DNA of 62,884 nucleotides. Source: Candidatus Binatia bacterium (lineage in GTDB: Bacteria > Desulfobacterota > Binatia > UTPRO1). Of the stretch, positions 5,346 to 54,017 are shown in pieces. Location of the stretch: NCBI GenBank assembly GCA_039917665.1, contig JBDSJB010000104.1, positions 1-62,884 on the forward strand, written 5' to 3'. Positions within the stretch are counted from its first letter, which is position 1. Every line of letters begins with the position of its first letter. Under the pieces are notes generated by a model, which saw only the letters and a list, made by a program, of their open reading frames with translations, had not been told where the DNA came from and searched no databases. A program made the position numbers and the translations under genes.

Positions 5346-5793
5346 CGGATCCTCGCGCCGCGAGCCATCGCACCTGGCGTTCCTGGGCGGCCAGAAACAA
5401 GCCCATCGCGCAGCTGAAGCTCGTGAACAGGCTCATCGTGAAATAGATCCACGTGTGGCGAAGACCGCGGCGCGGACCGTCGATCATCGTCCAGAGCGGC
5501 AGCAGGACCAGGTTCGTGATGATCATGTCCTGCCCGACCGAGCCCGACGCTGGGTTGGCAAACAACATCCCGGTGAAGTGCAGCCAGCTGTACTCGTCGG
5601 GGTAACCGAACACGTAGCGGATGTTGAAGTACCACCCCGCACACACCGAGATGCCGGCCATGGCGTAGTAGACGCCCTCGACGAACGTAACATCGGCACC
5701 GGGCCAATCGCGCCGATAGAGGTACGCGTTCACGGAGTAGAAAATGTAGACCGTGAGCGCGCCGAGCGCCGCGTGGATGAGCAGTGAAAGCAC
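5332..5793 (-). CDS. small integral membrane protein (about 4 TM), family not recognised
   Basis: 153 aa with hydrophobic segments LLIHAALGALTVYIFYSV, YYAMAGISVCAGWYF, MIITNLVLLPLW and IYFTMSLFTSFSCAMGLFLAA. It is the first gene of the minus-strand operon 5793 to 1997. Confidence 0.55.
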   Translation of the reverse strand: MLSLLIHAALGALTVYIFYSVNAYLYRRDWPGADVTFVEGVYYAMAGISVCAGWYFNIRYVFGYPDEYSWLHFTGMLFANPASGSVGQDMIITNLVLLPLWTMIDGPRRGLRHTWIYFTMSLFTSFSCAMGLFLAAQERQVRWLAARGSDSRP

Positions 5794-5923
5794 CGAACAG
5801 CTCGCTACGCCCGACAGCCTGGCTCGGTCAAGGCATGGCGTGTCGCCATCGACGATTGCCGCGCCGCCAGAGACACGCTAGCTACACCGGCTCTCGGGCG
5901 TCACATCACGTCGACAAGGTAGC

Positions 5924-6640
5924 ATCGCGATCGCATCCCAACCGCTAGAGCCCCCGGCGTCGAGCTTCCGCGCGGCGATTCTCGTACCCGCGTACGATTG
6001 CGGCCAGACACTCGGAGCCGTGCTCGCGGACGCGAGCGCGTTCGACATGCCAATCATGGTCGTCGACGATGGATCGCGCGACGACACCGCCACGATCGCA
6101 CGCGCCAACGGCGCCGACGTGCTCGCGCACGGAACGAATCTCGGCAAGGGTGCGGCGCTCGTCACGGGGATGCGCGCCCTTCACGCCCGCGGGTTCACGC
6201 ACGCGCTCACAATGGACGGGGACGGCCAACACCTCGCGCGTGAGATCCCGAAGCTTCTCGCGACTGCCACCGCGGACCCGACGGCGATCGTCATCGGCGT
6301 GCGGCACCGCGGCGATCAAGAAGTTGCCGGCATCAACCTCTTTGGCAATCGCTTCGCGAATCTCTGCGTCCAGAGCGCCGCCGGAGTGCCACTCCCCGAC
6401 ACACAGTCGGGATTTCGCGTCTATCCGCTCGCAACGATGCTGCGTTTGCCACAGCAAGGCGAACATTTCGAATACGAATCGACGTCGATCATCTACGCCG
6501 CACGCGCCCGCGTGCCCATCCGCTCGATTTCCGTCGACGTCTACTACCCGCCGGTGACGGAGCGTCGCAGCCACTACCGCAAGGTCGTGGATACACTCCG
6601 CATCATACGCGTAGTCGCCCCCCTCCTCCTGCGACGTTGA
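5924..6640 (+). CDS. family 2 glycosyltransferase
   Basis: ILVPAYD, MVVDDGSRDDT, LGKGAAL, MDGDGQH, DTQSGFRVY. The track start (GTG 6020) would delete the ILVPAYD strand. The frame is open from 5882 with no canonical start. ATC 5924 has AAGG 4 nt upstream; the start is uncertain. Confidence 0.65.
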   Translation: MAIASQPLEPPASSFRAAILVPAYDCGQTLGAVLADASAFDMPIMVVDDGSRDDTATIARANGADVLAHGTNLGKGAALVTGMRALHARGFTHALTMDGDGQHLAREIPKLLATATADPTAIVIGVRHRGDQEVAGINLFGNRFANLCVQSAAGVPLPDTQSGFRVYPLATMLRLPQQGEHFEYESTSIIYAARARVPIRSISVDVYYPPVTERRSHYRKVVDTLRIIRVVAPLLLRR

Positions 6641-6762
6641 GGCAGCGGATTGCCACTTTTGCGGCGGCGTGCGGAGCGCTTATGCCCCCAAGACAGCGTG
6701 TACACGGGCGGGCGCCGTGGCATTCGTCTTGCTCCCTCTGCTGGTCTGGAGGGCATGCACAC

Positions 6763-7011
6763 GTGGATAGACTCGCACCCGTCATTCGCGATCTTCGAAG
6801 CCGTCTCGGCCTCACGCAAGAAGAATTCGCTCACGCACTCGGCATCACGGTCAGCACCGTGAACCGTTGGGAAAAGGGCCATTCGGTCCCCAGCAAGTTG
6901 GCACGCGCGTCGCTGGCGCGCTTTGCCGGGCGCCGCGGCGTCGCGGTGGAAAGCCTTCTCGAAGATGCATCGTCGGACGGCATGGCGCCGCGTTCGAGCT
7001 CGGTCAACTAA
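6763..7011 (+). CDS. XRE/Cro-type helix-turn-helix transcriptional regulator
   Basis: IRDLRSRLGLTQEEFAHALGITVSTVNRWEKGHSVP is a classic HTH_3 pattern. Start placed at GTG 6763 (GGAGGG 9 nt upstream). The first 42 codons of track ORF 6637..7011 look non-coding. Confidence 0.55.
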   Translation: MDRLAPVIRDLRSRLGLTQEEFAHALGITVSTVNRWEKGHSVPSKLARASLARFAGRRGVAVESLLEDASSDGMAPRSSSVN

Positions 7012-7113
7012 ACACCGCTTCCCGTTGCCACTACCCGCTTGTGAGCCGCATCCGCGGCACAGCGGCATACCTTCGATTCGCGAACCCCTACGAGAACGAA
7101 GATCAGAATGGCG

Positions 7114-7150
7114 CAGGGTCCGAGGCGGCAGGACGCCCCCTCGGACCCTG
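7114..7150. terminator. 12-bp perfect GC-rich hairpin between convergent genes
   Basis: CAGGGTCCGAGG (7114-7125), 13-nt loop, CCTCGGACCCTG (7139-7150). It lies between the ends of 6763..7011 (+) and 7159..10224 (-). There is no clear U-tract. Confidence 0.55.
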
Positions 7151-7158
7151 ATCACCGT

Positions 7159-10100
7159 TCACTTACAATCGAGCAGGCCGGGCTTGAAGATGCAGGCGGG
7201 TTTCGCCGGCGGCAAGCCGAAAGCCACCTCGCCGCACTGATTGCGCCCAGGAGTTCCGCCTGGCGGGAAGGCACCGTCGTTCAGCTCGAAGGTCACCCGC
7301 AGGGGCGCCTGAGAGCCGCTCGAGATCGGATACGTTCCGTTCTTCGCGATCAAGAAGACGGCGATCTGATTCGGCTCGACGCGCGACTGATCCTTCACGA
7401 CCAGCTTCCGGATGCCGTTGTGAGTCGGCGGCTTCTGGCGGTCGGTATAGATCCACTTGCTCGCCGGACTGCCGAAGGCTTTCCAGCCACTATTGCCGCC
7501 CGGGACGAGATCGCCACCAGGGATATGCTCGTCGACGATGATCGATCCCGTGCTGTCGATGATGCGGAGCTGGATGCCATGCCGTTCCGGCGCGAGCACG
7601 GGCAGCGTGCTCCCGGTCTTGAAGAACCCACGCATGCGAAGCGTCTGACTTCCAGGCGGACGGTTGAGTCGACCGAGGGTCACGCGCGGCTGGGTCCAGG
7701 CACCGGACGTACCGCGTGAGCACGGATCCTGACTCCCGATCGCAGGCGGGCGGAAGGTCAAGCCGAAGCAAAAGCCGTCGTTGTCGCTGTCGTTGTCGGT
7801 GTCGCCGGGGCAAAGGTCACACGCATCCCCGAAGATGTCGCCGTCGATGTTGCTCTGTCCGACATCGGACACCGACGGGCAGACGTCGACCTGGTCGCAG
7901 ACGCCGTCGAGGTCGCTGTCGACCGCACGGCAGGTGGCGGAGCAGCAGAGGTCGAGGCCGTTGTTCGCGCCCTGATCGCATTGCTCGCCAGCCGTGACGA
8001 TGCCGTTCCCGCATCCGGTCGGTCGGCAATTGGCGTCGCAGCCGTCACCATTCACGAGATTCTGATCGTCGCAGACCTCGCCCGGCCCGACGACGCCGTC
8101 GCCGCACGCTCCTTCGAGCGTGCACGTCGGACTGCATCCGTCAGCCGCGACGGTATTGCCGTCGTCACAGACTTCTCCCGCCGTCACGACGCCGTTCCCG
8201 CATCCGGTGGTCTGGCAATTGGAATCGCAGCCATCTCCGTCGATCACGTTGCCGTCGTCGCACGCTTCGCCACCCTCGGTCGTGCCGTCGCCGCAGGAGA
8301 GATCGTCGAAGGCGTAAACGGCCCCGGCGTCGATGGCCACGGTGTCGTCGAGTGGCGTTCCGACGACAATGCGTTGCCCGAGGACTGCGATCGACTCACC
8401 GAAATGGTCCTCGGTGACGGGGGCCGGCTTCTTGAAGGAGTCGAGCAGGGCGCCGGTGCCCGCGTGGTACACGTAGACCGCTCCCGAATTCAGCACCACG
8501 CTGTCCTCCAACCGCGCGCTGATCACCACGCGATCCGGCGGGATACCGACGACCGCGTAGCCAAAGGCATCGTTCAGAACGGGAACCGGGCTGGTGAAGG
8601 TGCGGAGCAAGGCGCCCGTCGTCGTGTTGTACAGGTAGACGGCGCCGCCGTTCACGGCGCCCTGGTCGATCACCGGGGCTCCTATCAGCGCATCCGCGCC
8701 GAGAGTGCTCACCGTCGAGCCGAAGAGGTCGCCGGTGGCGGGCGTCGGATTCGCGAACGTGCGAATCGCACTGCCCGTCGCGGGATTGAAGAGGTACGCC
8801 TCGCCGCAGTTCGGAGCCGCCGGGGTGTCGTGGTTCGGCGCCCCAACCAGAACGTTGCCTCCGACCGCAGCGATCGCGGACCCGAAGCGATCCCCAGCCG
8901 CCGGCGTCGGATTCAAGAACACCTGCAGGACCGCCCCGTTGGTCGTGTTGATGAGGTAGGCCGCACCACCCCCGCCGCCGCCCGACGCGTCACCGGGAGC
9001 GCCGACCAAGAGGTTGTTCCCGAGTGTAGCGATCGCCATCCCGAACCCATCGTTCACGCCCGGATCCGGATTGAGGAACGTGCGAATGAGGACGCCCGTC
9101 GCACTATTGAAGAGATAGACCGCGCCGGCGTTCGGTCCCGCGGTGTCGTCCGCGGGGGCGGCCACGAGAACGTTGCTGCCGAGCCCGGCAACGGCGGCAC
9201 CGAAATCGTCGCCGGGACCAGGATTAGGATTCTGGAAGGTGCGGAGCAGTGCTCCCGTTCCTCCGGCGAAGAGATGGGCGACGCCGGTATTGATGGCGTT
9301 GGTGACGTCGAACTGCGGAGCCCCCACGAGCAGATTCAGCCCGACCGCGGCGATCGCGCGCCCGAAGTGATCTCCCGCTGACGGAATGGGGTTGAGGAAC
9401 TCGCGCTCGCAATCCTCGGAACACCCGTCGCCGTTCAGGAGGTTCCCGTCGTCGCACTGCTCGGTGCCCGTCACGATGCCACTGCCACACCCGGTCGGGA
9501 GACAGCTCGCATCGCAGCCGTCCGCATTCACGAGGTTGCCGTCGTCGCAGGATTCGCCGGCGCTGATGATGCTGTTGCCGCAACCGGTCGCCGTGCAATT
9601 GGTATCGCAGCCGTCGCCGTTCACGAGGTTACCGTCGTCGCAGGCTTCGGTACCGGTGGTGACCCCATTGCCGCAGCCCGTGACCGTGCAGTTGGCATCA
9701 CAGCCGTCGCCACTCACCAGATTGCCGTCGTCGCACGTCTCGGTTCCGGTCGTGACCGCGTTCCCGCAACCAGTCACCGTGCAATTGGCGTCGCACCCGT
9801 CGCCGCTCACCATATTGCCGTCGTCACACGTTTCGGTTCCGGCCGTGATGCCGTTGCCGCAGGCCGTCACCTTGCAGTTGGCATCGCAGCCGTCACCGCT
9901 GACGAGATTCCCGTCATCGCAGGTCTCGGTTCCGGTCGTGACCCCGTTGCCGCAGGCCGTCACTTTGCAGTTGGCATCGCAGCCGTCACCGCTGACGAGA
10001 TTCCCGTCGTCGCAGGTCTCGGTTCCGGTCGTGATGCCGTTGCCGCAGGCGGTGATCGTACAATTGGCGTCGCAGCCATCGCCGCTCACCAAGTTGCCGT

Positions 10101-42506: not shown

Positions 42507-42983
42507 TCAGCGGGCGGGTCGGTCGAACTTGCCGGCGCGCGCGTCCGCTTCGAGGGCCTTGATCTTACCGACGCGTCGAACGTGCCGCTCGGCGTGCGAG
42601 AACCGCGCTACGAGGAAGGCGCGCAAGCATTCCGCGGCCGCCTCTTCGCCGATCACCCGCGCCCCGAGACAGAGCACGTTGAGATCGTCGTCCTCGACGC
42701 CTTGTCGCGCCGAAAACGTATCGTGGCAGAGCGCCGCACGCGCACCCGGCACCTTGTTTGCCGCGACCGATGCCCCGACGCCGCTGCCGCACACGAGGAC
42801 GCCACGCTCGGCGCGGCCCTCGACGACCGCGGTCGAAACGGCTCGCGCGAAGTCGGGATAATCCGACGGGGTGGTGTCGAACCCCCCGCAGTCGACGATC
42901 TCGTGCCCAGCCGCCTGCAGCTCACGCGCCATGCGCGCTTTCAGCGGGAACCCCGCATGGTCGCAACCGACGGCGATGATCAC
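42507..42983 (-). CDS. rpiB: ribose-5-phosphate isomerase B
   Basis: [53 protein letters not shown]. The start overlaps the tkt stop. Confidence 0.93.
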
Positions 42984-45001
42984 CTGGTGCCGCCTTCGGC
43001 GCTCGCCAGCAACGATCGCACACGAGCGGCCACGTTCTCCGCGGTGAAGCCGAGCTTCTCGAGATTCACCTCCCCCGGCGCCGACGCCCCGTAGCGATCG
43101 AGCCCGACCGCCGAACCACCATCACCGAGCCAACGCTCCCAGCCGAGCGTGACGCCGGCCTCGACCGACACGCGGGTACGCACGTCCGGCGGCAACACCG
43201 ACGCCCGATATGCCGCATCCTGCTCGGCGAAGAGCTCCCAACACGGCATCGACACGACGCGGGCCGGAATGCCCTCGCCGGCGAGCAGCTTCTGCGCCGC
43301 CACCGCCACGGACACTTCGGAGCCGGTGGCGAGCAACAGCGCCACGGGCTTTCCTTGCCCCGGATCGGCGACGACGTACGCTCCTCGCGCCGTGCCGCGC
43401 GCCACGGCCTGATCGATCACCGGCAGCTTCTGACGACTCAGCACGAGCGCCACGGGCCGATGACGCTGCTCGATCGCGAAGCGCCAGGCTTCCGCGGTCT
43501 CGTTCGGGTCGGCCGGTCGCATCACCGCGAGACCCGGCATCGCCCGCAGTGACATCAAGTGTTCGACCGGTTGATGAGTCGGCCCGTCCTCGCCGAGTGC
43601 GATCGAGTCGTGCGTCCAGACGAACGTGACGGGCAGCTCGTTCAGGGCCGCCAGTCGCACCGCGGGGCGCATGTAGTCCGAAAAACAGAAGAACGTCGCG
43701 ACGAACGTGCGGAGGCCGCCGTGATAGGCGATGCCGTTCGCGATCGCGCCCATCGCATGCTCACGCACGCCAAAATGGATGTTGCGGCCCGCGCCGGTCT
43801 GTCCATCGAACGAGCCACCGTCCTTGAGTGACGTGCTGGTGGAGACCGAGAGGTCGGCGTCACCGCCGATCAGCTCAGGCACGCGCGCCGCGATCGCGTT
43901 CAGCGCCTTGCCGGACGCTTGGCGGGTGGCCTGCGCATCCTTCTCACCGAAGGTCGGTAAGCCGCCGTCCCAATCCGCGGGAAGCTCGCCGGCCAACGCC
44001 CGACGCCATTCTGCGGCCAGCTCAGGATGCGCGCTCGCGTAGGCGCCGAATTGCTTCTCCCATTCGGCCTGCTGCGACGCCCCGCGCTCCACCGCCGAGC
44101 GCAGATGCGCCCCCGCCTCGGGCGGCACCACGAAAGACTTGTCGGGATCGAAGCCCAGCGTGCGCTTGGCGGCCGCCACTTCGTCGGGGCCGAGAGGGCT
44201 GCCGTGCGCCTCCGACGTGCCCTGCTTCTTCGGCGATCCGAATCCGATCGTCGTCTGAATGACGATCATCGAGGGTCGCGTCGTGTCGGCTTCGGCTTCG
44301 CTGATCGCGCGATCGATCGCCGCGAGATCCGTGTCACCGTTCTTCACGTGCAGCACTTGCCAGCCGTACGCGGCGTACCGTGCGCCCACGTCTTCGGTCG
44401 AAAAGGCCAGCGACGTCGGTCCGTCGAGCGAAATGTGATTACAGTCGTAGACGTAAATGAGCTTGCCGAGCTTCAGGTGACCGGCGAGTGACGCCGCCTC
44501 GGCCGAGATCCCTTCCATCAAGTCGCCGTCCGACACCAAGGCGTACGTGCGGTGATCGACGATCGTGTGGCCAGGTCGATTGAAGCGATGCGCGAGCGTG
44601 CGCTCGGCCATCGCCATGCCGACCGCGTTCGCCGTTCCCTGCCCGAGCGGCCCCGTCGTCGCTTCGACGCCAGGCGTGAGGAGCGTCTCCGGATGACCGG
44701 GAGTGCGACTCTCCCACTGACGAAACGCCTGCAGATCAGCGAGCGTGAGATCGTAACCCGTGAGATGCAGCAGGCAGTACAAGAGCATGCTACCGTGCCC
44801 AGCGGACAAGACGAACCGATCCCGATTGGCCCAGTGCGGGTTGCGGGGATTGTGGCGCAAATGGCGCTGCCACAAGACGTACGCCATGGCCGCGGCACCC
44901 ATCGGCAAACCGGGATGTCCCGAGTTCGCCTTCTGCACGGCATCGATAGCGAGCGTACGGATGGTGTTGACGGCTAGCTGCGCGAGATCCTCGTCCTTCA
45001 C
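42980..45001 (-). CDS. tkt: transketolase
   Basis: GTG 45001 has GGGGGAGG upstream. [33 protein letters not shown] and [10 protein letters not shown] motifs. Confidence 0.95.
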
Positions 45002-45067
45002 GGCGCCTCCCCCTTGTCTCGATCGCGACGGCGACCATGCACGCATATCGCGGACCGGAGGGACAGC

Positions 45068-47389
45068 TCAATCGCCCTTCTGGTCCAGGGCAGGAAGCGG
45101 CTGCACCTGGGCGAGCTGACGTGCGAGCGTCGCGGGGTCCGACGTGGGCGCCAAGCATCGGCCGCGCTCGCAGACGTAGGCGGTCGCAAGGCCATCGACC
45201 GCACGCTTCTCGCCGACAAAGGGCAGCGCGGCCTGTGCCGCGGCGAGCATCGATCCCTCGCGCGCCACCACGAACGCGCGGTTCGGGAGAAACGTGCTCC
45301 GCACGACCGCCTGCAAGGCGGTACTCCCCTCGTCGCCTTCGGCCGGCTCCACGATGACGATCTCGCGCGGCCGATCCAACAGCGCCTCGAGCACGCCGAG
45401 CAACCGCGGCGCGCTCGTCGGCACCCTCGTCAAGGCCCGGCCCAATGCACGGAGGCACTCGGTCGCACGCTGCCGCGCCCGGTCGTCGTCCCGGAACGTC
45501 GCCAAACGCAGGAGATTCTCGGCCGCGACGGCGTTGCCCGAAGGCAAGGCACCATCATCCAAAGACTTGGTCCGCGGCAGCCCCGAGTCGGTGTCGGCGA
45601 CGCTCGTCGTGAAGAAGCCGCCACTATCGTCGTCCCAGAACTCGTCCGCGAGCGTCGCATGGAGGGCTTCGGCTTCACGCAGCCAGCCCAGATCGAACGT
45701 CGCTTCGTAGAGATCCAGAAAGCCCGCGGCGAGAAACGCATAGTCGTCGAGGAACGCGGGTTGCCCCGCCGCTCCGCCCGCGTACACGCGCTGCAGCCGA
45801 CCCTGTGGTCGCAGGTGCGCAAGCACGAACTTCGCCGCCTCGATGGCGACGTTCACGTAGCGCGGCTCGGCGAGCGTCGCCCCGGCACGCGCAAATGCCG
45901 AGATGGCGAGGCCGTTCCACGCGACCAGAACCTTCGTGTCGACAAGCGGCGCCGGGCGTCGCGCACGCGCAGTGAGAAGCTTTTCACGACTGCCGGTCAC
46001 GAGCGTTCGGAATCGCCCCTGGTCGACTCCGAGCTCGGCCGCCACCACGTCCGAGTCGCGCGCAACGTGCAGCACAGTGCGACCGTCGAAGTTGCCGCTC
46101 GCATCCACCCCGAAGTACGCCCGCGCCGCAGCGGCGAGCTCCGCGGGCAAGACCGCGTCGACCTCCGCTGGCGTCCACGTGTAGAAGGCGCCCTCGCCCC
46201 CGGGATCGTCCGCATCGATCGCGGAGTAGAAGCCTCCGCCCGGTGCCCGAAACGTCCGCAACAGATCCTCGAGGATCCCGCGCGCGACCTCGGCGAAGCG
46301 TGGGTCGCCCGTCGCTTGCCGCGCGTTCAGATAGAGGCTCGCGAGCTGCGCATTGTCGTAGAGCATCTTTTCGAAGTGTGGGATCTGCCACGCTCGATCG
46401 GTCGCATATCGGTGGAACCCTCCTCCGATCTGATCGAGTATTCCTCCACGATCGAGCTGGTCGAGCGTGCGACGCACCATGGTCAAGGCAGAAGGCTCCT
46501 GAGTCCGGCGATGGTAGCGCAGCAAAAACTCGAAGCTCGCCGGCATCGGAAACTTGGGGGCTCGACCGAAGCCACCGAATGCTTCATCGAAGCTCGACCG
46601 ATACGCCGCGAAGGCTGCGTCCAGAACGGTCCGACCAGGGACGCCAGCCGCGGGTTCGACGTCCGCGAGCGCACGCACGCGCGCGGTCAGCTCACGCCCG
46701 CGCGCGACCAGACCGGCCGGATCCGCCCGATGGGCATCCGCGATTTGCCGCAGTAGCGAAAGGAAACCGATACGCGCGCCACGGACGCCGTCGCGCGGCG
46801 GGAAATACGTGCCGCCGAAGAACACCTCGCGATCGGGTGTCAGCCAGATAGTCATCGGCCAACCGCCGCCGCCCGTCATCAGCATCACCGCCTGAAGGTA
46901 CGTCGCGTCGACGTCCGGGCGCGCTTCGCGATCGACCTTGATGGCCACGTAGTCGGCATTCAGTCGTGCGGCGATCTCCTCGTCCTCGAACGACTCCTCC
47001 TCCATCACGTGGCACCAATGACAAGTCGCATAGCCGATGCTCAGGAGGATCGGCTTTCCTTCCGCCTTCGCGCGCGCGAACACCTCGTCGCCCCACGGGT
47101 ACCAGTCGACCGGGTTGTGCGCGTGCTGACGGAGGTACGGGCTACGCTCGAGGATGAGCCGATTGGTGTAGCGCGCACTGCCGTCCGGGCGCAGGTGGTG
47201 GGTCCGCGGTCGATACCCGTCGCCGAGCTCGGCGACGGCATCGCGGAGGCGCGCGACGAGCTCCGGGGACCGCGAGGACGCCCCCGGGAGCGGCTCGCTG
47301 GCCGACCCGTCCACGGCGTCGCGCGGCGCACACCCGACGAGCCCGGCGGCCACCAGCATCGCGATCACGGAGAGACGACGGAGGCGCAC
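45068..47389 (-). CDS. thioredoxin-fold DUF255/YyaL-like protein with (alpha/alpha)6-type C-terminal region, predicted lipoprotein
   Basis: GTG 47389 gives [20 protein letters not shown] (lipobox). [45 protein letters not shown]. The first 181 codons of the 954-aa track ORF are Arg-rich overlap and are rejected. Confidence 0.8.
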
Positions 47390-47418: not shown

Positions 47419-48210
47419 TCAGCGATCCGGGAGCGCGGCCAGCACCCCATCCTCGAGCCAACGCAGCATCAGGGACCCGGCGGTCGCGGGGGCCTCTTCG
47501 GCCGACACGACCGACGCCAACCGCTCGCAGAGATCGGCGAACGTATCTCCGGTCACGACCGCGGCAAGCGCTATTCGCTCCGCGGCATCCATCGATACCT
47601 GAAAAACCTGGTCGCCCTGCCGCCAAACCCGGAGATGGGTCGTGCTGGGACGGATCTCGCTCGACGGCAGCGCGGTTTCGACGGCCTGCCAGATTTCGTG
47701 GACTGGCCAGGCCGCGTCGAGCGTCACGACGGCGGGCACGAGGCTGAGGCGAAGCGTCGTCCACTCGTCGGGGGGAATGCGCCGAAGCGCGTCGATCTCG
47801 AGCAGCGGCGCATCGGGGGCGTCGAACACCGCCAAGCGGGCCCACTCGAGACGGGCCAGATCGACGAGAAACTCCGGAGCCCCGTCGAGCGGCGCCTGGT
47901 CGAGAAACTCGGCGAACCGAGCCCCGAACCATCGCAAAGACGGCTGCGTGGACGGGTGCGCATCGATGTAGGCGTGCGCGGCGGCACCGAAGGCCTCGGC
48001 ACCGAGGAGCGCGCCGACGCGGGGGTAGTCCTCGGTCAGCACGTCGACGAGTCGCGCACGATACATGCGCGCGTAGACGGCCAACCGTTCCGCCGGAGAT
48101 AGACGGGCGTTGCCTTGGATCTCGTCGAGGACGGGGGGCGGGCCTACCGTCGCACGCGACCCCGCGATCGCCCGGAAGAGATCACGCTGCAGATCAGGCA
48201 GTCGCCGCAT
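47419..48210 (-). CDS. DUF2063 family protein (HvfC/BufC-like partner of DUF692 enzymes)
   Basis: LQRDLFRAI.., [35 protein letters not shown]. The start overlaps the DUF692 gene by 17 nt. Confidence 0.8.
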
Positions 48211-49039
48211 GATCTCGTACGACCTCGCGCTCGACGACGCGCGCCCGCTCGGCTTCCGCGACGAGCTCGGACCATTCGGGAATGTGCTCGTCCCATTCGA
48301 CGAGCGTCGACACGGGGCCGATCCGTTCGATCACCCATCGATAGAGCGCCCACACTTCGGCGCGGACCGGGGCATCGTGCGTGTCGAGCAGATGCGTTCC
48401 GTGATCGCTGTGCCCCGCGAGATGAATTTGTCCGATCCGATCGGCCGGCACTCCGGCGAGGTAGCTGATCGGATCGAAGCCGTGATTCATCGCGCTCACA
48501 TAGACGTTGTTGACGTCGAGCAGGACGGCGCAATCGCTCCGCCGCGCCACCTCCGCGAGAAACTCCCACTCGGGCATCGCCGACGCCGCATACGTCAGGT
48601 AGCTGGAGACGTTCTCGACGAGAATCTGGCGACCGAGACGATCCTGCACGCGCATCACGCGCTCCACCACGTGGTCGACCGCTTCTTCGGTGTAAGGCAA
48701 CGGCAGCAGATCGTGCGCGTAATGTCCCCCCACGCTGCCCCAGCAGAGATGGTCGGAGATCCACGCCGGCTCGACGCGGGCGGCCAGAGCCGCCAGCGCG
48801 TTGAGGTAGTCCTCTCGCAACGGATCGGCCGATCCGAGCGAGAGCGATACGCCATGCAAGACGACGGGCGCCAGCGCCCTGGCCTGATCCAGGACCCGGA
48901 GCGGTCGCCCGCCCCCCACCATGAAATTCTCCGAAATGACCTCGAACCAGTCGACGCGCGCGGTTCCCGCCTGCACCTCTGGAAAGTGCGTACTGCGAAG
49001 GCCCACGCCGTGGCCGAGGTACGGCAGTTGAATGCTCAT
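48194..49039 (-). CDS. DUF692/UPF0276 family multinuclear non-haem iron oxidase (MbnB/HvfB/BufB-like)
   Basis: ATG 49039. LGHGVGLR, WFEVISENF, HGVSLSLGS, ISDHLCW, LVENVSSY, LLDVNNVYVS, IHLAGH, LLDTHD, LVEWD. Confidence 0.85.
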   Translation of the reverse strand: MSIQLPYLGHGVGLRSTHFPEVQAGTARVDWFEVISENFMVGGGRPLRVLDQARALAPVVLHGVSLSLGSADPLREDYLNALAALAARVEPAWISDHLCWGSVGGHYAHDLLPLPYTEEAVDHVVERVMRVQDRLGRQILVENVSSYLTYAASAMPEWEFLAEVARRSDCAVLLDVNNVYVSAMNHGFDPISYLAGVPADRIGQIHLAGHSDHGTHLLDTHDAPVRAEVWALYRWVIERIGPVSTLVEWDEHIPEWSELVAEAERARVVEREVVRDHAATA

Positions 49040-49331
49040 TGCGTTCCGTCCGTTCTGCTCCGGTCCCTGTCCGTTTTCCACCTACTCCTTGCATACTGCG
49101 AACACGGTTCGTTGGATGCCGGACCGGGGCCACGCGTCGGGTCGAACCTCCGAATGGAGATCTAAAACTCCCCGGACCGCATTTTCATGTTGACAGCTGG
49201 GGGGCACTCCTGGTTCTCCGGAGTCAGCGAGAGCGTTTTCAACCAACGAGAGACCGATGCCGGCGACCCACGGGGTTCCCATAGCGCGCAACCTGCTGAA
49301 CGGCGCGCACGAGTCGGCCCAGCCGATTGGG

Positions 49332-49859
49332 ATGCCCGATCGAAGTCGTCGCCGCTCCGGATGGATGGCTCTGGCACAGGGCGGTGACGGTATCGCCTAT
49401 CGGGCTCTGCTCGACGATCTCGGGCCGGTCGTCGTCAAGTTTCTCGGTCGCCGCTTGCGGGATCGCCAGGATCTCGCCGACGCCTATCAGGACACGTTTC
49501 TGGCCATGCACCGTGCGCGTCACAGCTACCAGCCGCGGCGCCCGATCGAACCATGGATCTTCGCGATCGCCCGCAACGTCGCGGCCGACTACGGACGCCG
49601 TCACGTGCGGCGGGCGCGCCACGAGATCTTGACGGACGTGACCCCCGAAACCGCGAACGAGCCCGAGCGCGATCCCAGCACCCGGCTCGAATCGATCCTC
49701 GGCGCGCTTCCCATCCGGCAGCGCGAAGCCCTGCAGCTCCTCAAGGTGCAGGGCCTCACGGTGAACGAGGCGGCGGCGCGTGTCGGGACGACGCCAGGCG
49801 CGCTCAAGATCCGCGCCCACCGCGCCTACATCGCCGTCAGGGCCGCCTTTCGGAAGTGA
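49332..49859 (+). CDS. ECF-type RNA polymerase sigma factor
   Basis: Region 2: DLADAYQDTFLAMHRARHSY..PWIFAIARNVAADY. Region 4: LPIRQREALQLLKVQGLTVNEAAARVGTTPGALKIRAHRA. The start is uncertain (ATG 49257, 49332 or 49365). Confidence 0.85.
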   Translation: MPDRSRRRSGWMALAQGGDGIAYRALLDDLGPVVVKFLGRRLRDRQDLADAYQDTFLAMHRARHSYQPRRPIEPWIFAIARNVAADYGRRHVRRARHEILTDVTPETANEPERDPSTRLESILGALPIRQREALQLLKVQGLTVNEAAARVGTTPGALKIRAHRAYIAVRAAFRK

Positions 49860-49942
49860 GCCCCGGCGCCGCCCCAATTGATCCCCCTTCGGCGAGTTGA
49901 TACCTCGGACCGAGACTTGGGAGCCGGGAGCAGGAGGGGTCG

Positions 49943-50539
49943 ATGGAGACGTTCGGAATGATGATCCGCGAGTACCGCTGGTTAGCGCTCGCCCTGCTGC
50001 TCGCCGCTGCCACTGCCACCGGCATCGTCAGCTGCGGTGGAGGAAGCAGTGGCGGTACGGACGGTGGCCTGTGCGAGCAATGCGGTCAGACCGACGGACC
50101 CTGCATCTCGCCAGCGCTCATCGTACCCGGTGCAAACGAGCCGGCCCCCTGCCCGACGGCTCCGCTTCCAGAAACCTGCGTCGCTCGCGAGCTGATCTGC
50201 CGCCGCGGCGTCGACACTGCGCGGCAGCGCTGCTACCCCGCCAACGCCAGCGGTACGGACGTCGATGCCGGCTTCCGATGCAAAGGGACGCGGCCTGGTT
50301 CCACGCTGGCACCATCGACCGCGACGCCATCGGCGGCGACGGCCGTCCCGACTCCCACCAAGACGGCAGACCTGAACGCGCTTTGCGGCGACGGCAGCAT
50401 TCAGGGACTCGAGCAGTGCGAGGGAAGCAACTTTGGAAGCGCCTCGTGTGCCAACCAATGCAGCGGTGACGGCACCGGCCGTCTGCAGTGTTTCGGCTGC
50501 CAGATCGATACGACCCTCTGCGACGGGCCCTGCCCTTAG
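49943..50539 (+). CDS. Cys-rich lipoprotein (17 Cys), function unknown
   Basis: GGAGG lies 5 nt upstream of the ATG; lipobox GIVSC. Cys pairs are scattered through the protein. The C-terminus LCGDGSIQGLEQCEGSNFGSASCANQCSGDGTGRLQCFGCQIDTTLCDGPC loosely resembles the Cys-rich repeat of the large proteins. Confidence 0.7.
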   Translation: METFGMMIREYRWLALALLLAAATATGIVSCGGGSSGGTDGGLCEQCGQTDGPCISPALIVPGANEPAPCPTAPLPETCVARELICRRGVDTARQRCYPANASGTDVDAGFRCKGTRPGSTLAPSTATPSAATAVPTPTKTADLNALCGDGSIQGLEQCEGSNFGSASCANQCSGDGTGRLQCFGCQIDTTLCDGPCP

Positions 50540-50717: not shown

Positions 50718-50900
50718 ATGGAGCTGCCAAAGTGCCAGAAGTGCAATAACGGATTGTTGATACCGTTGTCTGACTATGGACAGGAGGGGGCAACCGTCGT
50801 CTTCAAGGCGTGGGTGTGCACCAATCCAGAATGCGGATTCTCGCTCCGAGTCGACAAAGGTGATGTGACCTACGGCAAGAAGATCGAGCACAAGCACTGA
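50718..50900 (+). CDS. 60-aa zinc-ribbon protein (CxxC ... CxxxxC)
   Basis: AAAGGAGG lies 7 nt upstream of ATG 50718. MELPKCQKCNNGLLIPL..AWVCTNPECGFSLRV. 53% GC by hand count, with A/T-ending codons. A textbook terminator follows. Confidence 0.65.
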   Translation: MELPKCQKCNNGLLIPLSDYGQEGATVVFKAWVCTNPECGFSLRVDKGDVTYGKKIEHKH

Positions 50901-50927
50901 GCACCGGCATTTCCCGCCCGGACTCGA

Positions 50928-50959
50928 GGAAGCGCGATGCCCTGCGCTTCCTTTTTTTT
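50928..50959 (+). terminator. canonical rho-independent terminator
   Basis: GGAAGCGC-GATGCCCT-GCGCTTCC followed by T8 (50952-50959). Confidence 0.85.
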
Positions 50960-50984: not shown

Positions 50985-52817
50985 TTAGATCGCCGCGACG
51001 ATCCGGGTGCCCTCGACGGCATCCGACGGCACGCTGACGAAGATTCGCGTGCCGTGATTGGGCCGCGACGTCACGCGGAACACCCCGCCGAAATGGGCTA
51101 CCCGCTCGCGCATCCCGATCAGGCCGAGCCCGACCGACCGCGGCGGCGTCCGGAAGTAGGCCTGGGAGTCGAACCCGACCCCGTCGTCGCCGATCTCGAG
51201 GACGATGGCGCGTTCCTCGAGCCCCAAGCGGACGTGGACGCGGGTCGCCTGGGCATACTTGACGACATTGATCATCGCCTCCTGGAAGATGCGAAACACG
51301 AGAAGCTCGAGCGCCGGCGCAAACCGCAGCGCGCTGTCGTCACATTCGATCCGGATCTGGATGTCGGACGTCGCTCGGTATTTCTCGGCCACGGACTCGA
51401 TGGCGGCGATGGCCCCGAAGTCATCGAGCGCGGGCGGATAGATCAGGTGCGACATCTGTCGCACGCTCTGCACGACGTCCAAGACTTGCGAACGGACGTC
51501 GCGCACGGCCACGCGCGGATCGGGCTCGAGCGAGGGCAGCTGACGTTCCAGGAGCGCCAAGTCGAGCTTGATCACCATGAGCGCCTGACACGTGCCGTCG
51601 TGGAGCTCGCGCGAGATCCGACGCATGCTCTCCTCCACGACATCGAGGCGCTTGTTGGAGAGTTGCTGCAACTCTGCCCGATGCTGCAGCACGAGCGCGT
51701 AGAGCCGCGCGTTGCCGATCGCCATCGCCGCACTGTTGCCGAGCGTCGCCGCGGTATCCACGAAGCTCGCTTCGAGCGGGCGCGAGTCTCCGCCAGCGTC
51801 CGCGAGGATCAGGCCGACGAGCTCAGACTGATACTGCAGCGGCAAGCGCAACACACGCGCTGGCGCCGCCCCGCTCGCGTACATGAGATCGCGCAGATCG
51901 TCGGCATCCGGCTCGAGCAGTGCCGGCCGTGCGTCGGAGGCGACGTTCAAAACGGATTCCCATCGGCCAGGGTCGGTCGTGAGCGGCCGGAGCGTCACCC
52001 GCTCGCCATCCGCCTCGGCCTGCAATGCCTGCAACTCGCCGTCGGGTGTCGGCCGCCATACCAGCCACAGGCGCTGCAGACGAAGCGCGTGCAGCACGCT
52101 TTGACAGACCCGCCACAGCACCTGCTCGATCTCGAGCGTGGCCGTGACCGAGCGGGTCACGTCGTAGACCATGGCGGCTTGCTGGTCGCGGGTGCGCGTG
52201 AGCAACAGACGCTGATGGAAGATCGCCCGGCGGTGGGCGTCGAGCAGGAGTGCCCCGATGCTCGAGCTGGCACCAGCACCGGCGACGCTGATGAGCGCGT
52301 ACGGCGGGGGCAACTCCCCGCGCACGCCGAGCACGAGCGCCGTCACGTACGCCCCGAACGTGAAGAAGACGAGTGGAATCTGCCACGTTCCCCACGGATA
52401 GATCAACGGCACGCCGGTCATGAAGATGATCAGCGCAAACGCCAAGGCGTCGCCGCTGGCACCGGCCGCCACGACGTATCCGGTGACACAGAACGCGATA
52501 GCACTGGTCACCACGCAGATGATGCCGACGATGTAGCGGTGCAGTCCGAGCCCGTAGATCGTACTCAGTCCGAGCACGCAGAGCACCAGCTCCGTCCCGA
52601 AGCTGTAGAGCAACGGCCGCGCGCGGTCGGGCCAGTACGAAATTTCGATGAGTCCCGCGATCGTCACCAAGGTGACGAAGAACACGATACCGCCGGGGAC
52701 GCGCCGCGCCATGATCCGACGTGTATCGGCCCGAAAGGCCTCGAGGACGTGGGGCTCCAATTCGTGGGCCATGGAGGGGTCGGTTGGGACGGTCGGCCAA
52801 TTGTCCAATGAAGTCAA
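50985..52817 (-). CDS. membrane sensor histidine kinase, GAF + HisKA_3 (NarX/LiaS-type) + HATPase
   Basis: N-terminal multi-TM region and a GAF-like segment. H-box ISRELHDGTCQALMVIKLDL; DDGVGFD; GLGLIGMRERV. No LuxR-type regulator is adjacent. The start is either TTG 52817 or ATG 52769. Confidence 0.85.
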   Translation of the reverse strand: MTSLDNWPTVPTDPSMAHELEPHVLEAFRADTRRIMARRVPGGIVFFVTLVTIAGLIEISYWPDRARPLLYSFGTELVLCVLGLSTIYGLGLHRYIVGIICVVTSAIAFCVTGYVVAAGASGDALAFALIIFMTGVPLIYPWGTWQIPLVFFTFGAYVTALVLGVRGELPPPYALISVAGAGASSSIGALLLDAHRRAIFHQRLLLTRTRDQQAAMVYDVTRSVTATLEIEQVLWRVCQSVLHALRLQRLWLVWRPTPDGELQALQAEADGERVTLRPLTTDPGRWESVLNVASDARPALLEPDADDLRDLMYASGAAPARVLRLPLQYQSELVGLILADAGGDSRPLEASFVDTAATLGNSAAMAIGNARLYALVLQHRAELQQLSNKRLDVVEESMRRISRELHDGTCQALMVIKLDLALLERQLPSLEPDPRVAVRDVRSQVLDVVQSVRQMSHLIYPPALDDFGAIAAIESVAEKYRATSDIQIRIECDDSALRFAPALELLVFRIFQEAMINVVKYAQATRVHVRLGLEERAIVLEIGDDGVGFDSQAYFRTPPRSVGLGLIGMRERVAHFGGVFRVTSRPNHGTRIFVSVPSDAVEGTRIVAAI

Positions 52818-52862
52818 GCCTCAAGCTTGCGAGGGCTGACCCCTTCCCCTATCGTCCCGGCC

Positions 52863-54017
52863 GTGAACTTCGACCTCACCCCGGAACAAGACATGCTCCG
52901 TCGAACCGTCCGCGAGTTCGCGGAGCGCGAGATCGCGCCACGCATGCTGGAGCTCGACGAGCGCGAGGAGTTTTCCTGCGACTTGACCCGCGCGATGGGC
53001 GAGCTCGGTCTCTTCGGCATGACGGTGTCGCCCGACTACGGCGGCCACGGGCTCGACTACCTGTCGTACATCATCGCGGTCGAAGAGATCGCGCGCGTGA
53101 ACGGCTCGCAGGCGGCAACGGTCGCCGCCGAGAACTCGCTCGGGATCGGGCCGCTCTATTATTTCGGTACCGAGGAGCAGAAGCGGCGGTATCTGCCCGA
53201 TCTCTGTTCCGGAAAATCGCTCTGGGGCTTCGGGCTTACGGAACCGTCGGCCGGCTCCGACGCGGGCGGCAGCAAGACGACCGCGCGCCTCGAAGGCGAC
53301 CGCTGGATCATCAACGGCAGCAAGATCTTCATCACCAACGCCGGCTCGCCGATGACGGCGGGCTCGACCGTCCAATGCGTCACCGGCACCCGCCCCGATG
53401 GCAGCAAGGAAATGAGCTGCATCATCGTCGACCAGGACACGCCCGGGTTCACCACCCGCCCCATGCACCGCAAGCTGGTGTGGCGCGCATCCAACACGGC
53501 TGAGCTCTACTTCGACAACGTTAGCGTCCCGCGCGAGAACCTGCTCGGCGAGCGCGGCAGCGGTTTTCGACAGATGCTGCAGACGCTCGACTCTGGGCGC
53601 CTCTCGATCGCGGCCATGGGTCTCGGCGGCGCGCAGGGCGCGTTCGAAGCCGCGCTCGCCTACGCCAAGGAACGCCAGCAATTCGGCAAAGCCATCAGCC
53701 AGTTTCAGGCGAACGCGTTCAAGCTCGCCGACATGGCCATGGAGATCGAGACGGCGCGCAACCTCCTGTACAAAGCCTGCTGGCTCCGCGACGAGGGTCG
53801 ACCGTTTCAGAAGGAAGCGGCCATGGCGAAGCTCTGGACGTCGGAGGTCATGCGGCGCGTGACACACGCCGCGGTCCAGATCTTTGGTGGCTATGGCCTG
53901 ATGGAAGAATACCCGGTCGCGCGGTTCTATCGCGATCAGCGTTTGCTCGAGATCGGCGAGGGCACGTCGGAAGTTCAGCGACTCGTGATCTCGCGCCTGC
54001 TCGGTTGCTACGACTGA
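52863..54017 (+). CDS. acyl-CoA dehydrogenase
   Basis: VNFDLTPEQDMLRRTVREFAEREI.., GLTEPSAGSD, QIFGGYGLMEEYPVARFYRDQRLLEIGEGTSEVQ. Start placed at GTG 52863. Confidence 0.9.
   Translation: MNFDLTPEQDMLRRTVREFAEREIAPRMLELDEREEFSCDLTRAMGELGLFGMTVSPDYGGHGLDYLSYIIAVEEIARVNGSQAATVAAENSLGIGPLYYFGTEEQKRRYLPDLCSGKSLWGFGLTEPSAGSDAGGSKTTARLEGDRWIINGSKIFITNAGSPMTAGSTVQCVTGTRPDGSKEMSCIIVDQDTPGFTTRPMHRKLVWRASNTAELYFDNVSVPRENLLGERGSGFRQMLQTLDSGRLSIAAMGLGGAQGAFEAALAYAKERQQFGKAISQFQANAFKLADMAMEIETARNLLYKACWLRDEGRPFQKEAAMAKLWTSEVMRRVTHAAVQIFGGYGLMEEYPVARFYRDQRLLEIGEGTSEVQRLVISRLLGCYD

What the first reader, a model, noticed from the sequence alone, without database searches (positions are those of the whole stretch)
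49257..50539. ECF sigma factor without an anti-sigma gene; its downstream partner is a 17-Cys lipoprotein, divergent from the MNIO operon
Seen: the ECF sigma gene is followed after 83 nt by a gene with its own strong SD. That gene encodes a lipoprotein (lipobox GIVSC) with 17 Cys and a Pro/Thr/Ala linker. No zf-HC2 or TM anti-sigma-like ORF is present. Established: ECF sigma genes are normally co-transcribed with their anti-sigma factor. As far as I recall, DUF692/DUF2063 (bufferin-type) operons in Caulobacter belong to an ECF (SigF) metal-stress regulon. Inference: this sigma may control the divergent MNIO operon. The exported Cys-rich lipoprotein is the nearest plausible substrate or metal-binding partner.
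Basis: partly seen in the sequence, partly recalled or inferred. Interest (0 to 1): 0.6.

Follow-up and report, generated by a model that had tools for sequence, protein, structure and literature searches.

The report
Orphan sigma factor of split bufferin system
The sigma factor gene lost its neighbouring anti-sigma gene by deletion and so ended up beside an unrelated cysteine-rich lipoprotein gene, while the real substrate of the nearby peptide-modifying enzymes is a small copper-binding peptide precursor encoded elsewhere in the genome.

Summary
An ECF sigma gene (49257-49859) is followed after 83 nt by a gene with an AGGAGG ribosome-binding site. That gene encodes a 198-aa lipoprotein with 17 Cys. 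No anti-sigma gene is present, and a BufB/BufC (MNIO/DUF2063) operon lies divergently.

The sigma is the orthologue of the SigF that sits in bufferin clusters of sister Binatia genomes, where nrsF (its anti-sigma gene) follows it directly. In this lineage nrsF was deleted. The 36 nt that follow nrsF in a same-genus genome follow the sigma stop codon here.

The lipoprotein is not a conserved partner. Same-genus genomes have sigma + NrsF, or sigma alone, with no lipoprotein at this site. The lipoprotein belongs to a small Binatia-only family with unlinked paralogues. It matches no bufferin model.

The genome does carry a proper BufA2 precursor on another contig, at a site conserved across the genus. 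So this is the regulator-plus-maturase half of a split bufferin-2 system with an orphan SigF.

I could not show sigma control of the MNIO operon. No robust shared promoter motif was found.

This is a new variant of a known kind, of modest interest.

The parts
49257..49859 (+). ECF sigma factor, orthologue of the bufferin-associated SigF. The start is uncertain (49257, 49332 or 49365).
   Evidence: Sigma70_r2 and r4_2 domains. It is 73% identical to the G131 sigma and 61% to the L016 sigma, both followed by NrsF. It is only 48-51% identical to the two own-genome paralogues. dN/dS is 0.11-0.14 within the NrsF-less clade.
49869..49904 (+). Deletion scar. This 36-nt segment lies just after the nrsF stop codon in same-genus genome G131.
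   Evidence: blastn gives 86% identity over 36 nt, E 6e-7, to L032:10202-10237, which is 14 nt after the nrsF stop. Here the segment starts 10 nt after the sigma stop.
49943..50539 (+). Cys-rich lipoprotein (LIPO), 198 aa. Signal peptide plus lipobox Cys31; Gly-rich tether; 8-Cys N-domain (residues 44-115, coordinates 50072-50287); Pro/Thr/Ala linker; 8-Cys C-terminal module (residues 148-197).
   Evidence: No Pfam or NCBIfam family. AF2 pLDDT is 84-92 for residues 41-120, with no PDB fold match. The family has 61 clusters among 1.84 billion representatives. dN/dS is 0.17-0.23.
48194..49039 (-). BufB, the MNIO bufferin maturase.
   Evidence: NF050167 at 381.7 bits (cut-off 310) and PF05114 at 366.8 bits. 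It is the only MNIO in the genome. dN/dS is 0.07-0.11.
47419..48210 (-). BufC, the DUF2063 partner protein; it overlaps the BufB stop.
   Evidence: PF09836 at 79.9 bits. The HvfC model scores 76.7 bits, below its cut-off. dN/dS is about 0.2.
45068..47359 (-). DUF255 thioredoxin-like lipoprotein, third gene of the operon.
   Evidence: PF03190 at 228.9 bits. It is conserved after BufC in L001, L007, L016 and G131, and reduced to a remnant in G083.
49190..49219 (.). Conserved footprint in the bufB-sigma intergenic region. The + strand reads TTGACA-N14-CTGGTTCTCC. The - strand reads GAGAACC-N16-TGTCAA (17 nt between AACC and GTC), an ECF-like promoter pointing at bufB.
   Evidence: Both blocks, at constant spacing, are conserved in window, L001, L004, G083 and G131. 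The assignment to a sigma factor is inference.
49288..49313 (+). Weak SigF-like motif GCAACC-N16-CGAG (2 mismatches to GTAACC-N16-CGAA).
   Evidence: It is conserved in L001 and degenerate in L004. Such matches occur about once per kb by chance. It does not align with the perfect promoters of G131 and G147.
50718..50900 (+). 60-aa zinc-ribbon protein, the conserved right-hand neighbour of the variable slot.
   Evidence: It is 93-100% identical in all related loci, with dN/dS 0.00-0.03. A terminator lies at 50926-50953.

Best explanation
This locus is the regulator-plus-maturase half of a split bufferin-2 system in an uncultured Candidatus Binatia bacterium.

BufB (an MNIO enzyme) and BufC (DUF2063) most likely modify the cysteines of a six-Cys, Sec-exported BufA2 precursor. 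That precursor gene stands alone on another contig (C49), at a site conserved across the genus.

The divergent ECF sigma gene is the orthologue of the SigF that, in sister genomes, is followed directly by its membrane anti-sigma gene nrsF. In this lineage nrsF was deleted, and an arsS-like radical SAM gene present in sister genera is also absent. As a result the sigma gene now abuts the next surviving gene of a variable slot.

That gene encodes a lipoprotein of a small Binatia-only family, with an 8-Cys N-terminal domain of unknown function. It is probably a disulfide-stabilised or metal-binding periplasmic protein.

Shown here: the gene identities, the orthology, the deletion scar, the variable occupancy of the slot, the unlinked BufA2, and purifying selection on all genes.

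Inferred: that this sigma still drives bufBC and bufA2; that without NrsF it acts constitutively or is controlled at the level of its own transcription; and that the lipoprotein is co-transcribed with it.
For: 1. BufB scores above the equivalog cut-off and is the only MNIO in the genome.

2. BufA2 (NF050166, 71.3 bits against a cut-off of 60) is at C49:5286-5555. Orthologues at 85-88% identity sit in the same context in G083 and G131, far from bufB.

3. Slot occupancy:
- G147/L016 has bufA2-bufB-bufC-DUF255 divergent from sigma-NrsF-ArsS-LIPO-ZNR.
- G131 and G049 have sigma-NrsF-ZNR.
- G083, G058 and G107 have sigma-ZNR.
- The window and L001-L005 have sigma-LIPO-ZNR.

4. The deletion scar is the 36 nt shared with the post-nrsF sequence of G131.

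5. In the ECF tree the window clade has 98/96 support, and the own-genome paralogues sit on branches of 1.3-1.6.

6. dN/dS within the NrsF-less, bufA2-unlinked clade: BufB 0.07-0.11, BufC 0.2, sigma 0.11-0.14, LIPO 0.17-0.23.

7. The LIPO family is confined to one Binatia family, with 1-3 copies per genome, mostly unlinked to bufB. It has no BufA HMM hit, and hhalign against BufA2 gives probability 0.07%.

8. Precedents: SigF/NrsF regulate buf1 and buf2 in Caulobacter (PMC11626156, PMC3511200). Stand-alone bufferin precursors are common (PMC12452194).
Against: - No promoter motif shared by bufB, bufA2 and the sigma gene could be established in this genome. The SigF consensus is matched only with 2 mismatches, at chance frequency.
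- The genome is a 706-contig MAG. Assignment of contig C49 to the same organism rests on conserved synteny in two same-genus genomes.
- LIPO lies within 1.5-5 kb of bufB in four genera (g2-g5) and in part of a fifth (g1). In G147 it sits in what looks like the sigma-nrsF-arsS operon. A functional tie to the stress regulon is therefore not excluded.
Confidence: 0.72

Rival explanations
1. The lipoprotein is a substrate of BufB/BufC, that is, a new lipid-anchored class of bufferin-like metallophore.
For: - It is exported, Cys-rich and encoded about 0.9 kb from bufB.
- LIPO lies within 1.5-5 kb of bufB in four genera (g2-g5) and in part of a fifth, g1.
- About 16% of Buf2 bufferins carry lipoprotein signal peptides, and precursor recognition involves the core peptide (PMC12452194, PMC11626156).
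- bufBC stay under purifying selection without an adjacent precursor.
Against: - A canonical BufA2 exists in the genome and is conserved across the genus.
- LIPO has no similarity to BufA1 or BufA2 and lacks the C-x-G-x-N-x-C-K-G repeats.
- Five same-genus genomes keep the sigma with no LIPO at this site; four of them show bufB alongside, and the fetched G049 stretch does not reach it.
- LIPO paralogues sit far from bufB, 810 kb away in G131.
- The linkage is embedded in a block of conserved housekeeping synteny (transketolase ... acyl-CoA dehydrogenase), so it carries little functional weight.
Confidence: 0.06
2. The lipoprotein is a genuine functional partner of the sigma factor. It would be either a periplasmic Cys-rich sensor or metal-binding effector co-transcribed with the sigma, or a replacement for the sensing role of NrsF.
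For: - The gap is 83 nt with no terminator or stable hairpin.
- In G147 the order sigma-nrsF-arsS-LIPO has gaps of 16-57 nt, so it is probably one operon.
- In sister genera the slot also holds a CopA-type ATPase and ArsS, a metal-stress setting.
Against: - LIPO has no cytoplasmic or transmembrane part that could bind a sigma factor.
- NrsF-less sigma genes exist without LIPO in G083, G058 and G107.
- Genus g3 genomes keep LIPO without the sigma.
- The LIPO gene has its own strong SD, and a conserved upstream element (49874-49913) is also present in G131, where no LIPO follows.
Confidence: 0.12
3. The sigma factor is not truly orphan. It is held in check in trans by one of the two NrsF paralogues encoded elsewhere in the genome (contigs C671 and C66).
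For: The genome has three SigF-like sigmas and two NrsF proteins. All three sigmas share 48-51% identity.
Against: - Each NrsF sits in its own sigma-nrsF operon.
- They share only 31-39% identity with the NrsF of the orthologous locus.
- ECF/anti-sigma pairs are usually specific (established knowledge).
Confidence: 0.2

Closest known systems
Caulobacter vibrioides buf2 system (bufA2-bufB2-bufC2, CCNA_02999-03001) under SigF/NrsF control (PMC11626156, PMC3511200)
   Same: It has a BufB MNIO and a DUF2063 partner, a six-Cys Sec-exported BufA2 precursor, no DoxX gene, and an associated SigF-type ECF sigma.
   Different: - Here the precursor gene is unlinked, on another contig.
- The sigma gene sits directly divergent from bufB.
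- nrsF has been deleted.
- A DUF255 thioredoxin-like lipoprotein is the third operon gene.
- The GTAACC-N16-CGAA promoter is not recognisable.
Complete Binatia bufferin-2 cluster in G147/L016 (MAG MFD04944.bin.3.280)
   Same: Orthologous BufB (71% identity), BufC, DUF255, sigma (61%), LIPO and zinc-ribbon genes lie in the same order and orientation.
   Different: L016 keeps bufA2 next to bufB. It also keeps nrsF and an arsS-like radical SAM gene between the sigma and LIPO, and a perfect GTAACC-N15-CGTA promoter before the sigma gene.
Stand-alone bufferin precursors and split bufferin clusters described in the MNIO landscape survey (PMC12452194)
   Same: The survey reports that a sizeable fraction of Buf1 and Buf2 precursor genes are not next to an MNIO gene.
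   Different: The survey reports sigma and NrsF genes in Buf1 but not in Buf2 clusters. Here a SigF-type sigma accompanies a Buf2-type system and lacks NrsF.

Membership tests
SigF-type ECF sigma factors (ECF16-like, NrsF-regulated) | A two-domain sigma with regions 2 and 4 only | tested here: met
   PF04542 at 50.6 bits and PF08281 at 36.7 bits, with no other domain. TIGR02937 scores 68.5 bits against a cut-off of 42.9.
SigF-type ECF sigma factors (ECF16-like, NrsF-regulated) | A cognate anti-sigma NrsF (DUF1109, PF06532) encoded directly downstream | tested here: not met
   There is no NrsF in the window. The orthologous sigma genes in G131, G049 and G147 do have it (PF06532 at 90.3 and 66.2 bits), and a deletion scar is present here.
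SigF-type ECF sigma factors (ECF16-like, NrsF-regulated) | An autoregulatory or target promoter GTAACC-N16-CGAA (PMC3511200) | tested here: inconclusive
   Only 2-mismatch matches occur, at 49288-49313 (+) and 49133-49108 (-), at a chance rate of about 1 per kb. Perfect GTAACC-N15/16-CGTA is present before the sigma gene in G131 and G147 only.
Bufferin biosynthetic gene cluster (Buf2 type) | A BufB-type MNIO enzyme | tested here: met
   NF050167 at 381.7 bits against a cut-off of 310.
Bufferin biosynthetic gene cluster (Buf2 type) | A DUF2063 partner protein (BufC) | tested here: met
   PF09836 at 79.9 bits against a cut-off of 27.2. The gene overlaps the bufB stop.
Bufferin biosynthetic gene cluster (Buf2 type) | A precursor gene (BufA2, six Cys, Sec signal peptide) adjacent to bufB | tested here: not met
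   There is no small Cys-rich ORF upstream of bufB. BufA2 is present in the genome but on contig C49 (NF050166 at 71.3 bits against a cut-off of 60).
Bufferin precursors (BufA1 DUF2282 / BufA2), as a home for the 17-Cys lipoprotein | A match to the family profile and the repeated C-x-G-x-N-x-C-K-G motif | tested here: not met
   No Pfam or NCBIfam BufA hit even at E up to 10. hhalign of the LIPO N-domain against BufA2 gives probability 0.07%. The motif is absent from the sequence.
Bacterial lipoproteins | A signal peptide ending in a lipobox [LVI][ASTVI][GAS]C | tested here: met
   A hydrophobic h-region is followed by I-V-S-C31. S30-C31 is invariant in all 27 family members. Lipidation itself cannot be tested with these tools.
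Myxococcus-type cysteine-rich repeat (TIGR02232 / PF13948), for the C-terminal module | A profile match | tested here: not met
   No hit at E up to 10 in Pfam or NCBIfam. The CGDG...E.C resemblance is recalled from memory only.

The most novel reading that the evidence does not exclude
Several Binatia lineages have dropped the NrsF anti-sigma factor, possibly more than once, while keeping SigF under strong purifying selection. All six NrsF-less loci examined also lack the SigF-type autoregulatory promoter. This would be a natural rewiring of an ECF switch from post-translational (anti-sigma) control to purely transcriptional or constitutive control. In this reading the 8-Cys lipoprotein, drawn into the sigma transcription unit, is a new periplasmic metal-binding effector of the copper-stress regulon.
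Probability: 0.15. Interest if true: 0.55.

Novelty: new variant of a known kind. Interest (0 to 1): 0.3.

Why it matters
Bufferins are a recently described and very widespread class of copper-binding modified peptides. This case shows three things.

- An apparently precursor-less MNIO operon can be explained by an unlinked BufA2 gene that a DUF2282-only search misses.
- Gene adjacency next to an ECF sigma can be a deletion artefact rather than a functional pairing.
- The bufferin-associated SigF can persist for a long time without its anti-sigma factor. This raises a testable question about how such orphan ECF sigmas are controlled.

It also flags a small, uncharacterised family of 8-Cys lipoproteins specific to Binatia.

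Tried and rejected
- PF10048 (DUF2282) search of the own genome: no hit. This was misleading, because the precursor is a BufA2 and was found by tblastn, a motif scan and NF050166.
- Remnants of bufA2 or nrsF in the window intergenic regions: none.
- SigF consensus scans upstream of bufB, LIPO and 14 bufA2 genes of Binatia: no consistent motif. A perfect -35/-10 pair upstream of bufA2 in L016 has an odd N18 spacing.
- Shared 9-mers between the bufA2 and bufB upstream regions (for example GGCATC, CGTGGGTCG): judged not distinguishable from chance in GC-rich DNA.
- Sigma-54 reading of the conserved CTGGCATC upstream of bufA2: rejected because there is no GC at the -12 position (by inspection).
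- Foldseek of the lipoprotein model against PDB: nothing below E = 1.
- G091 has LIPO but no BufB or BufA2. It also lacks the universally conserved zinc-ribbon gene, so the syntenic region is probably missing from that 89%-complete assembly. I did not use it as evidence.

Full report
**What is there.** The window is a whole 62,884-bp contig of a 5.3-Mb MAG (95% complete, 706 contigs). Its relatives are labelled Candidatus Binatia. The genes around the finding are:
- transketolase, 42980-45046 (-)
- a DUF255 thioredoxin-like lipoprotein, about 45068-47359 (-)
- BufC/DUF2063, 47419-48210 (-)
- BufB/MNIO, 48194-49039 (-)
- the ECF sigma gene, 49257-49859 (+)
- the Cys-rich lipoprotein gene, 49943-50539 (+)
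- a 60-aa zinc-ribbon gene, 50718-50900 (+)
- a HisKA_3 histidine kinase, 50985-52817 (-)
- an acyl-CoA dehydrogenase, 52827-54017 (+)

The gap is 83 nt, AGGAGG lies 5 nt before the ATG, the lipobox is IVSC, there are 17 Cys and a Pro/Thr/Ala linker, and no anti-sigma-like ORF is present. BufB scores 381.7 bits on the BufB equivalog model (cut-off 310). It is the only MNIO in the genome.

**The sigma factor.** It has only regions 2 and 4. The genome holds two paralogues at 48-51% identity, each followed by an NrsF (PF06532) gene. The window's sigma is much closer to sigma genes at the same syntenic position in other Binatia. It is 73% identical to G131 (same genus) and 61% to G147/L016 (another genus). 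In both of those, and in G049, nrsF follows directly. In a maximum-likelihood tree the two own-genome paralogues sit on long branches (1.3-1.6). The syntenic sigmas form a tight set, and the window clade has 98/96 support. So this is the orthologue of a SigF/NrsF-type sigma. This is the type that controls buf1 and buf2 in Caulobacter (PMC11626156, PMC3511200).

**Loss of nrsF.** The 36 nt that begin 10 nt after the sigma stop codon (49869-49904, GCCCCAATTGATCCC...TTGATACC) are 86% identical to the sequence that begins 14 nt after the nrsF stop codon in G131. That is the signature of a clean deletion of nrsF.

The slot between the sigma gene and the zinc-ribbon gene varies between genomes:
- sigma-NrsF-ArsS-LIPO in G147
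- ArsS-(CopA-type ATPase)-LIPO without sigma in genus g3 (L007-L009, L011)
- sigma-NrsF in G131 and G049
- sigma alone in G083, G058 and G107
- sigma-LIPO in the window and the metagenomic relatives L001-L005

The sigma-lipoprotein adjacency is therefore specific to one sub-clade. It results from gene loss in a variable region, which itself lies inside a block of conserved housekeeping synteny.

**The substrate of BufB/BufC.** A Pfam DUF2282 search of the genome was negative. However, tblastn with the precursor of L016 and a motif scan found an 89-aa ORF on contig C49 (5286-5555, minus strand). It has a Sec-type signal peptide and six Cys in C-x-G-x-N-x-C-K-G repeats. It scores 71.3 bits on NF050166, the BufA2 model (cut-off 60). 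Orthologues at 85-88% identity occupy the same context, near an acyl-CoA dehydrogenase paralogue, in G083 and G131. There they lie on another contig, or 4.1 Mb from bufB. In G147, G013, G022, G067 and G015 a BufA2 gene still sits next to bufB. L011 keeps only a remnant. So the genus carries a split bufferin-2 system, an arrangement already reported for bufferins (PMC12452194). Within the clade that lacks both an adjacent precursor and nrsF, all genes are under purifying selection:

| Gene | dN/dS |
|---|---|
| BufB | 0.07-0.11 |
| BufC | about 0.2 |
| sigma | 0.11-0.14 |
| lipoprotein | 0.17-0.23 |

**The lipoprotein.** It comprises a lipobox Cys, a Gly-rich tether, a conserved 8-Cys N-domain (C-x2-C-x6-C ... 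C ... C-x5-C-x10-C ... C), a Pro/Thr linker and a variable C-terminal part. The C-terminal part is an 8-Cys module here, a different domain in some paralogues, and absent in G147. A profile search of 301 Binatia genomes found strong matches only in one family, with 1-3 copies per genome; there were two weak hits in a second family. An exhaustive HMMER search of 1.84 billion cluster representatives found only 61 clusters. In these the domain generally lies directly behind the signal peptide. The lipoprotein matches no Pfam or NCBIfam family. The AlphaFold model is confident for residues 41-120 (pLDDT 84-92), but Foldseek finds no similar PDB structure. Profile-profile comparison with BufA2 gives probability 0.07%. 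Most paralogues are unlinked to bufB. Taken together with the presence of a canonical BufA2, this makes the substrate idea unlikely, though not impossible.

**Regulation.** The Caulobacter SigF site is GTAACC-N16-CGAA (PMC3511200). In the window there are only 2-mismatch matches, at 49288-49313 (+) and 49133-49108 (-). That is the chance frequency, about one per kb. There is none upstream of the lipoprotein gene.

Perfect GTAACC-N15/16-CGTA sites precede the sigma gene in the NrsF-positive genomes G131 and G147. They lie in a segment that is absent from all six NrsF-less loci and from G049. This may mean that positive autoregulation was lost along with the anti-sigma factor, but the sample is small.

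The bufB-sigma intergenic region carries a footprint conserved in five genomes (49190-49219). On the minus strand it reads GAGAACC-N16-TGTCAA (17 nt between AACC and GTC), an ECF-like promoter pointing at bufB. On the plus strand it reads as a TTGACA box without a credible -10. Upstream of bufA2 the genus conserves ACAACT-N16-CGTA. No common motif emerged across 14 Binatia bufA2 genes. There is no terminator or stable hairpin between the sigma and lipoprotein genes, so co-transcription is possible. Sigma control of bufBC and bufA2 remains an inference from orthology and precedent.

**Verdict.** The partner-or-substrate half is not supported. This is a variant of a known system: a split bufferin-2 cluster with an orphan SigF, next to a lineage-specific Cys-rich lipoprotein of unknown function. 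Earlier notes of this scan on split or stand-alone BufA2 genes in other genomes agree with this picture, but I did not use them as evidence.

Noticed in passing
window 50718-50900 (+), terminator 50926-50953: The 60-aa zinc-ribbon protein is extraordinarily conserved: 93-100% identical across genera whose BufB is only 70% identical, with dN/dS 0.00-0.03. It always marks the right edge of the variable slot. Its function is unknown.
   Followed up: partly
window 45068-47359 (-): A DUF255 thioredoxin-like lipoprotein is the conserved third gene after bufB-bufC in this Binatia family, where Caulobacter buf1 has DoxX. In G083 it is reduced to a remnant of about 100 aa.
   Followed up: partly
L007:5707-6786, L008:2746-3822 and 3826-6126, L011:3468-4457 and 4599-7205, L016:5804-6943: In sister genera the variable slot holds an ArsS-type radical SAM gene (TIGR04167 at 432 bits). 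In L008 and L011 it also holds a CopA-like P-type ATPase with repeated CxxC metal-binding motifs. The slot looks like a metal or metalloid stress islet.
   Followed up: partly
G000 contigs C671 (L025:3899-5173) and C66 (L026, about 4800-6100): There are two further sigF-nrsF pairs in the same genome. One is preceded by a NosD-like beta-helix protein gene. The other lies beside an MsrP-like molybdopterin oxidoreductase gene (PF00174).
   Followed up: partly
L032:about 8950-8980 and L016:4527-4552: Perfect SigF-type promoters (GTAACC-N15/16-CGTA) precede the sigma gene only in the NrsF-positive genomes G131 and G147. They are missing from all six NrsF-less loci and from the NrsF-positive G049.
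   Followed up: partly
window 49253-49269: The sequence GATGCCGGCGACCCA around the annotated sigma start codon is conserved at the DNA level in most of the same-genus loci examined, while the 36-52 codons that follow are not conserved as protein. The true start codon and the role of this element are unclear.
   Followed up: no
G099:C1:1247794-1248567 and G155:C3:126188-126959: In these two genomes BufB is split into several frames or carries an in-frame TGA. This is either decay of the maturase or an assembly error.
   Followed up: no
L011:3271-3363 (-): A truncated BufA2 remnant, with only the second N-x-C-K-G half, lies directly upstream of an intact bufB. It catches precursor-gene loss in progress.
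   Followed up: partly
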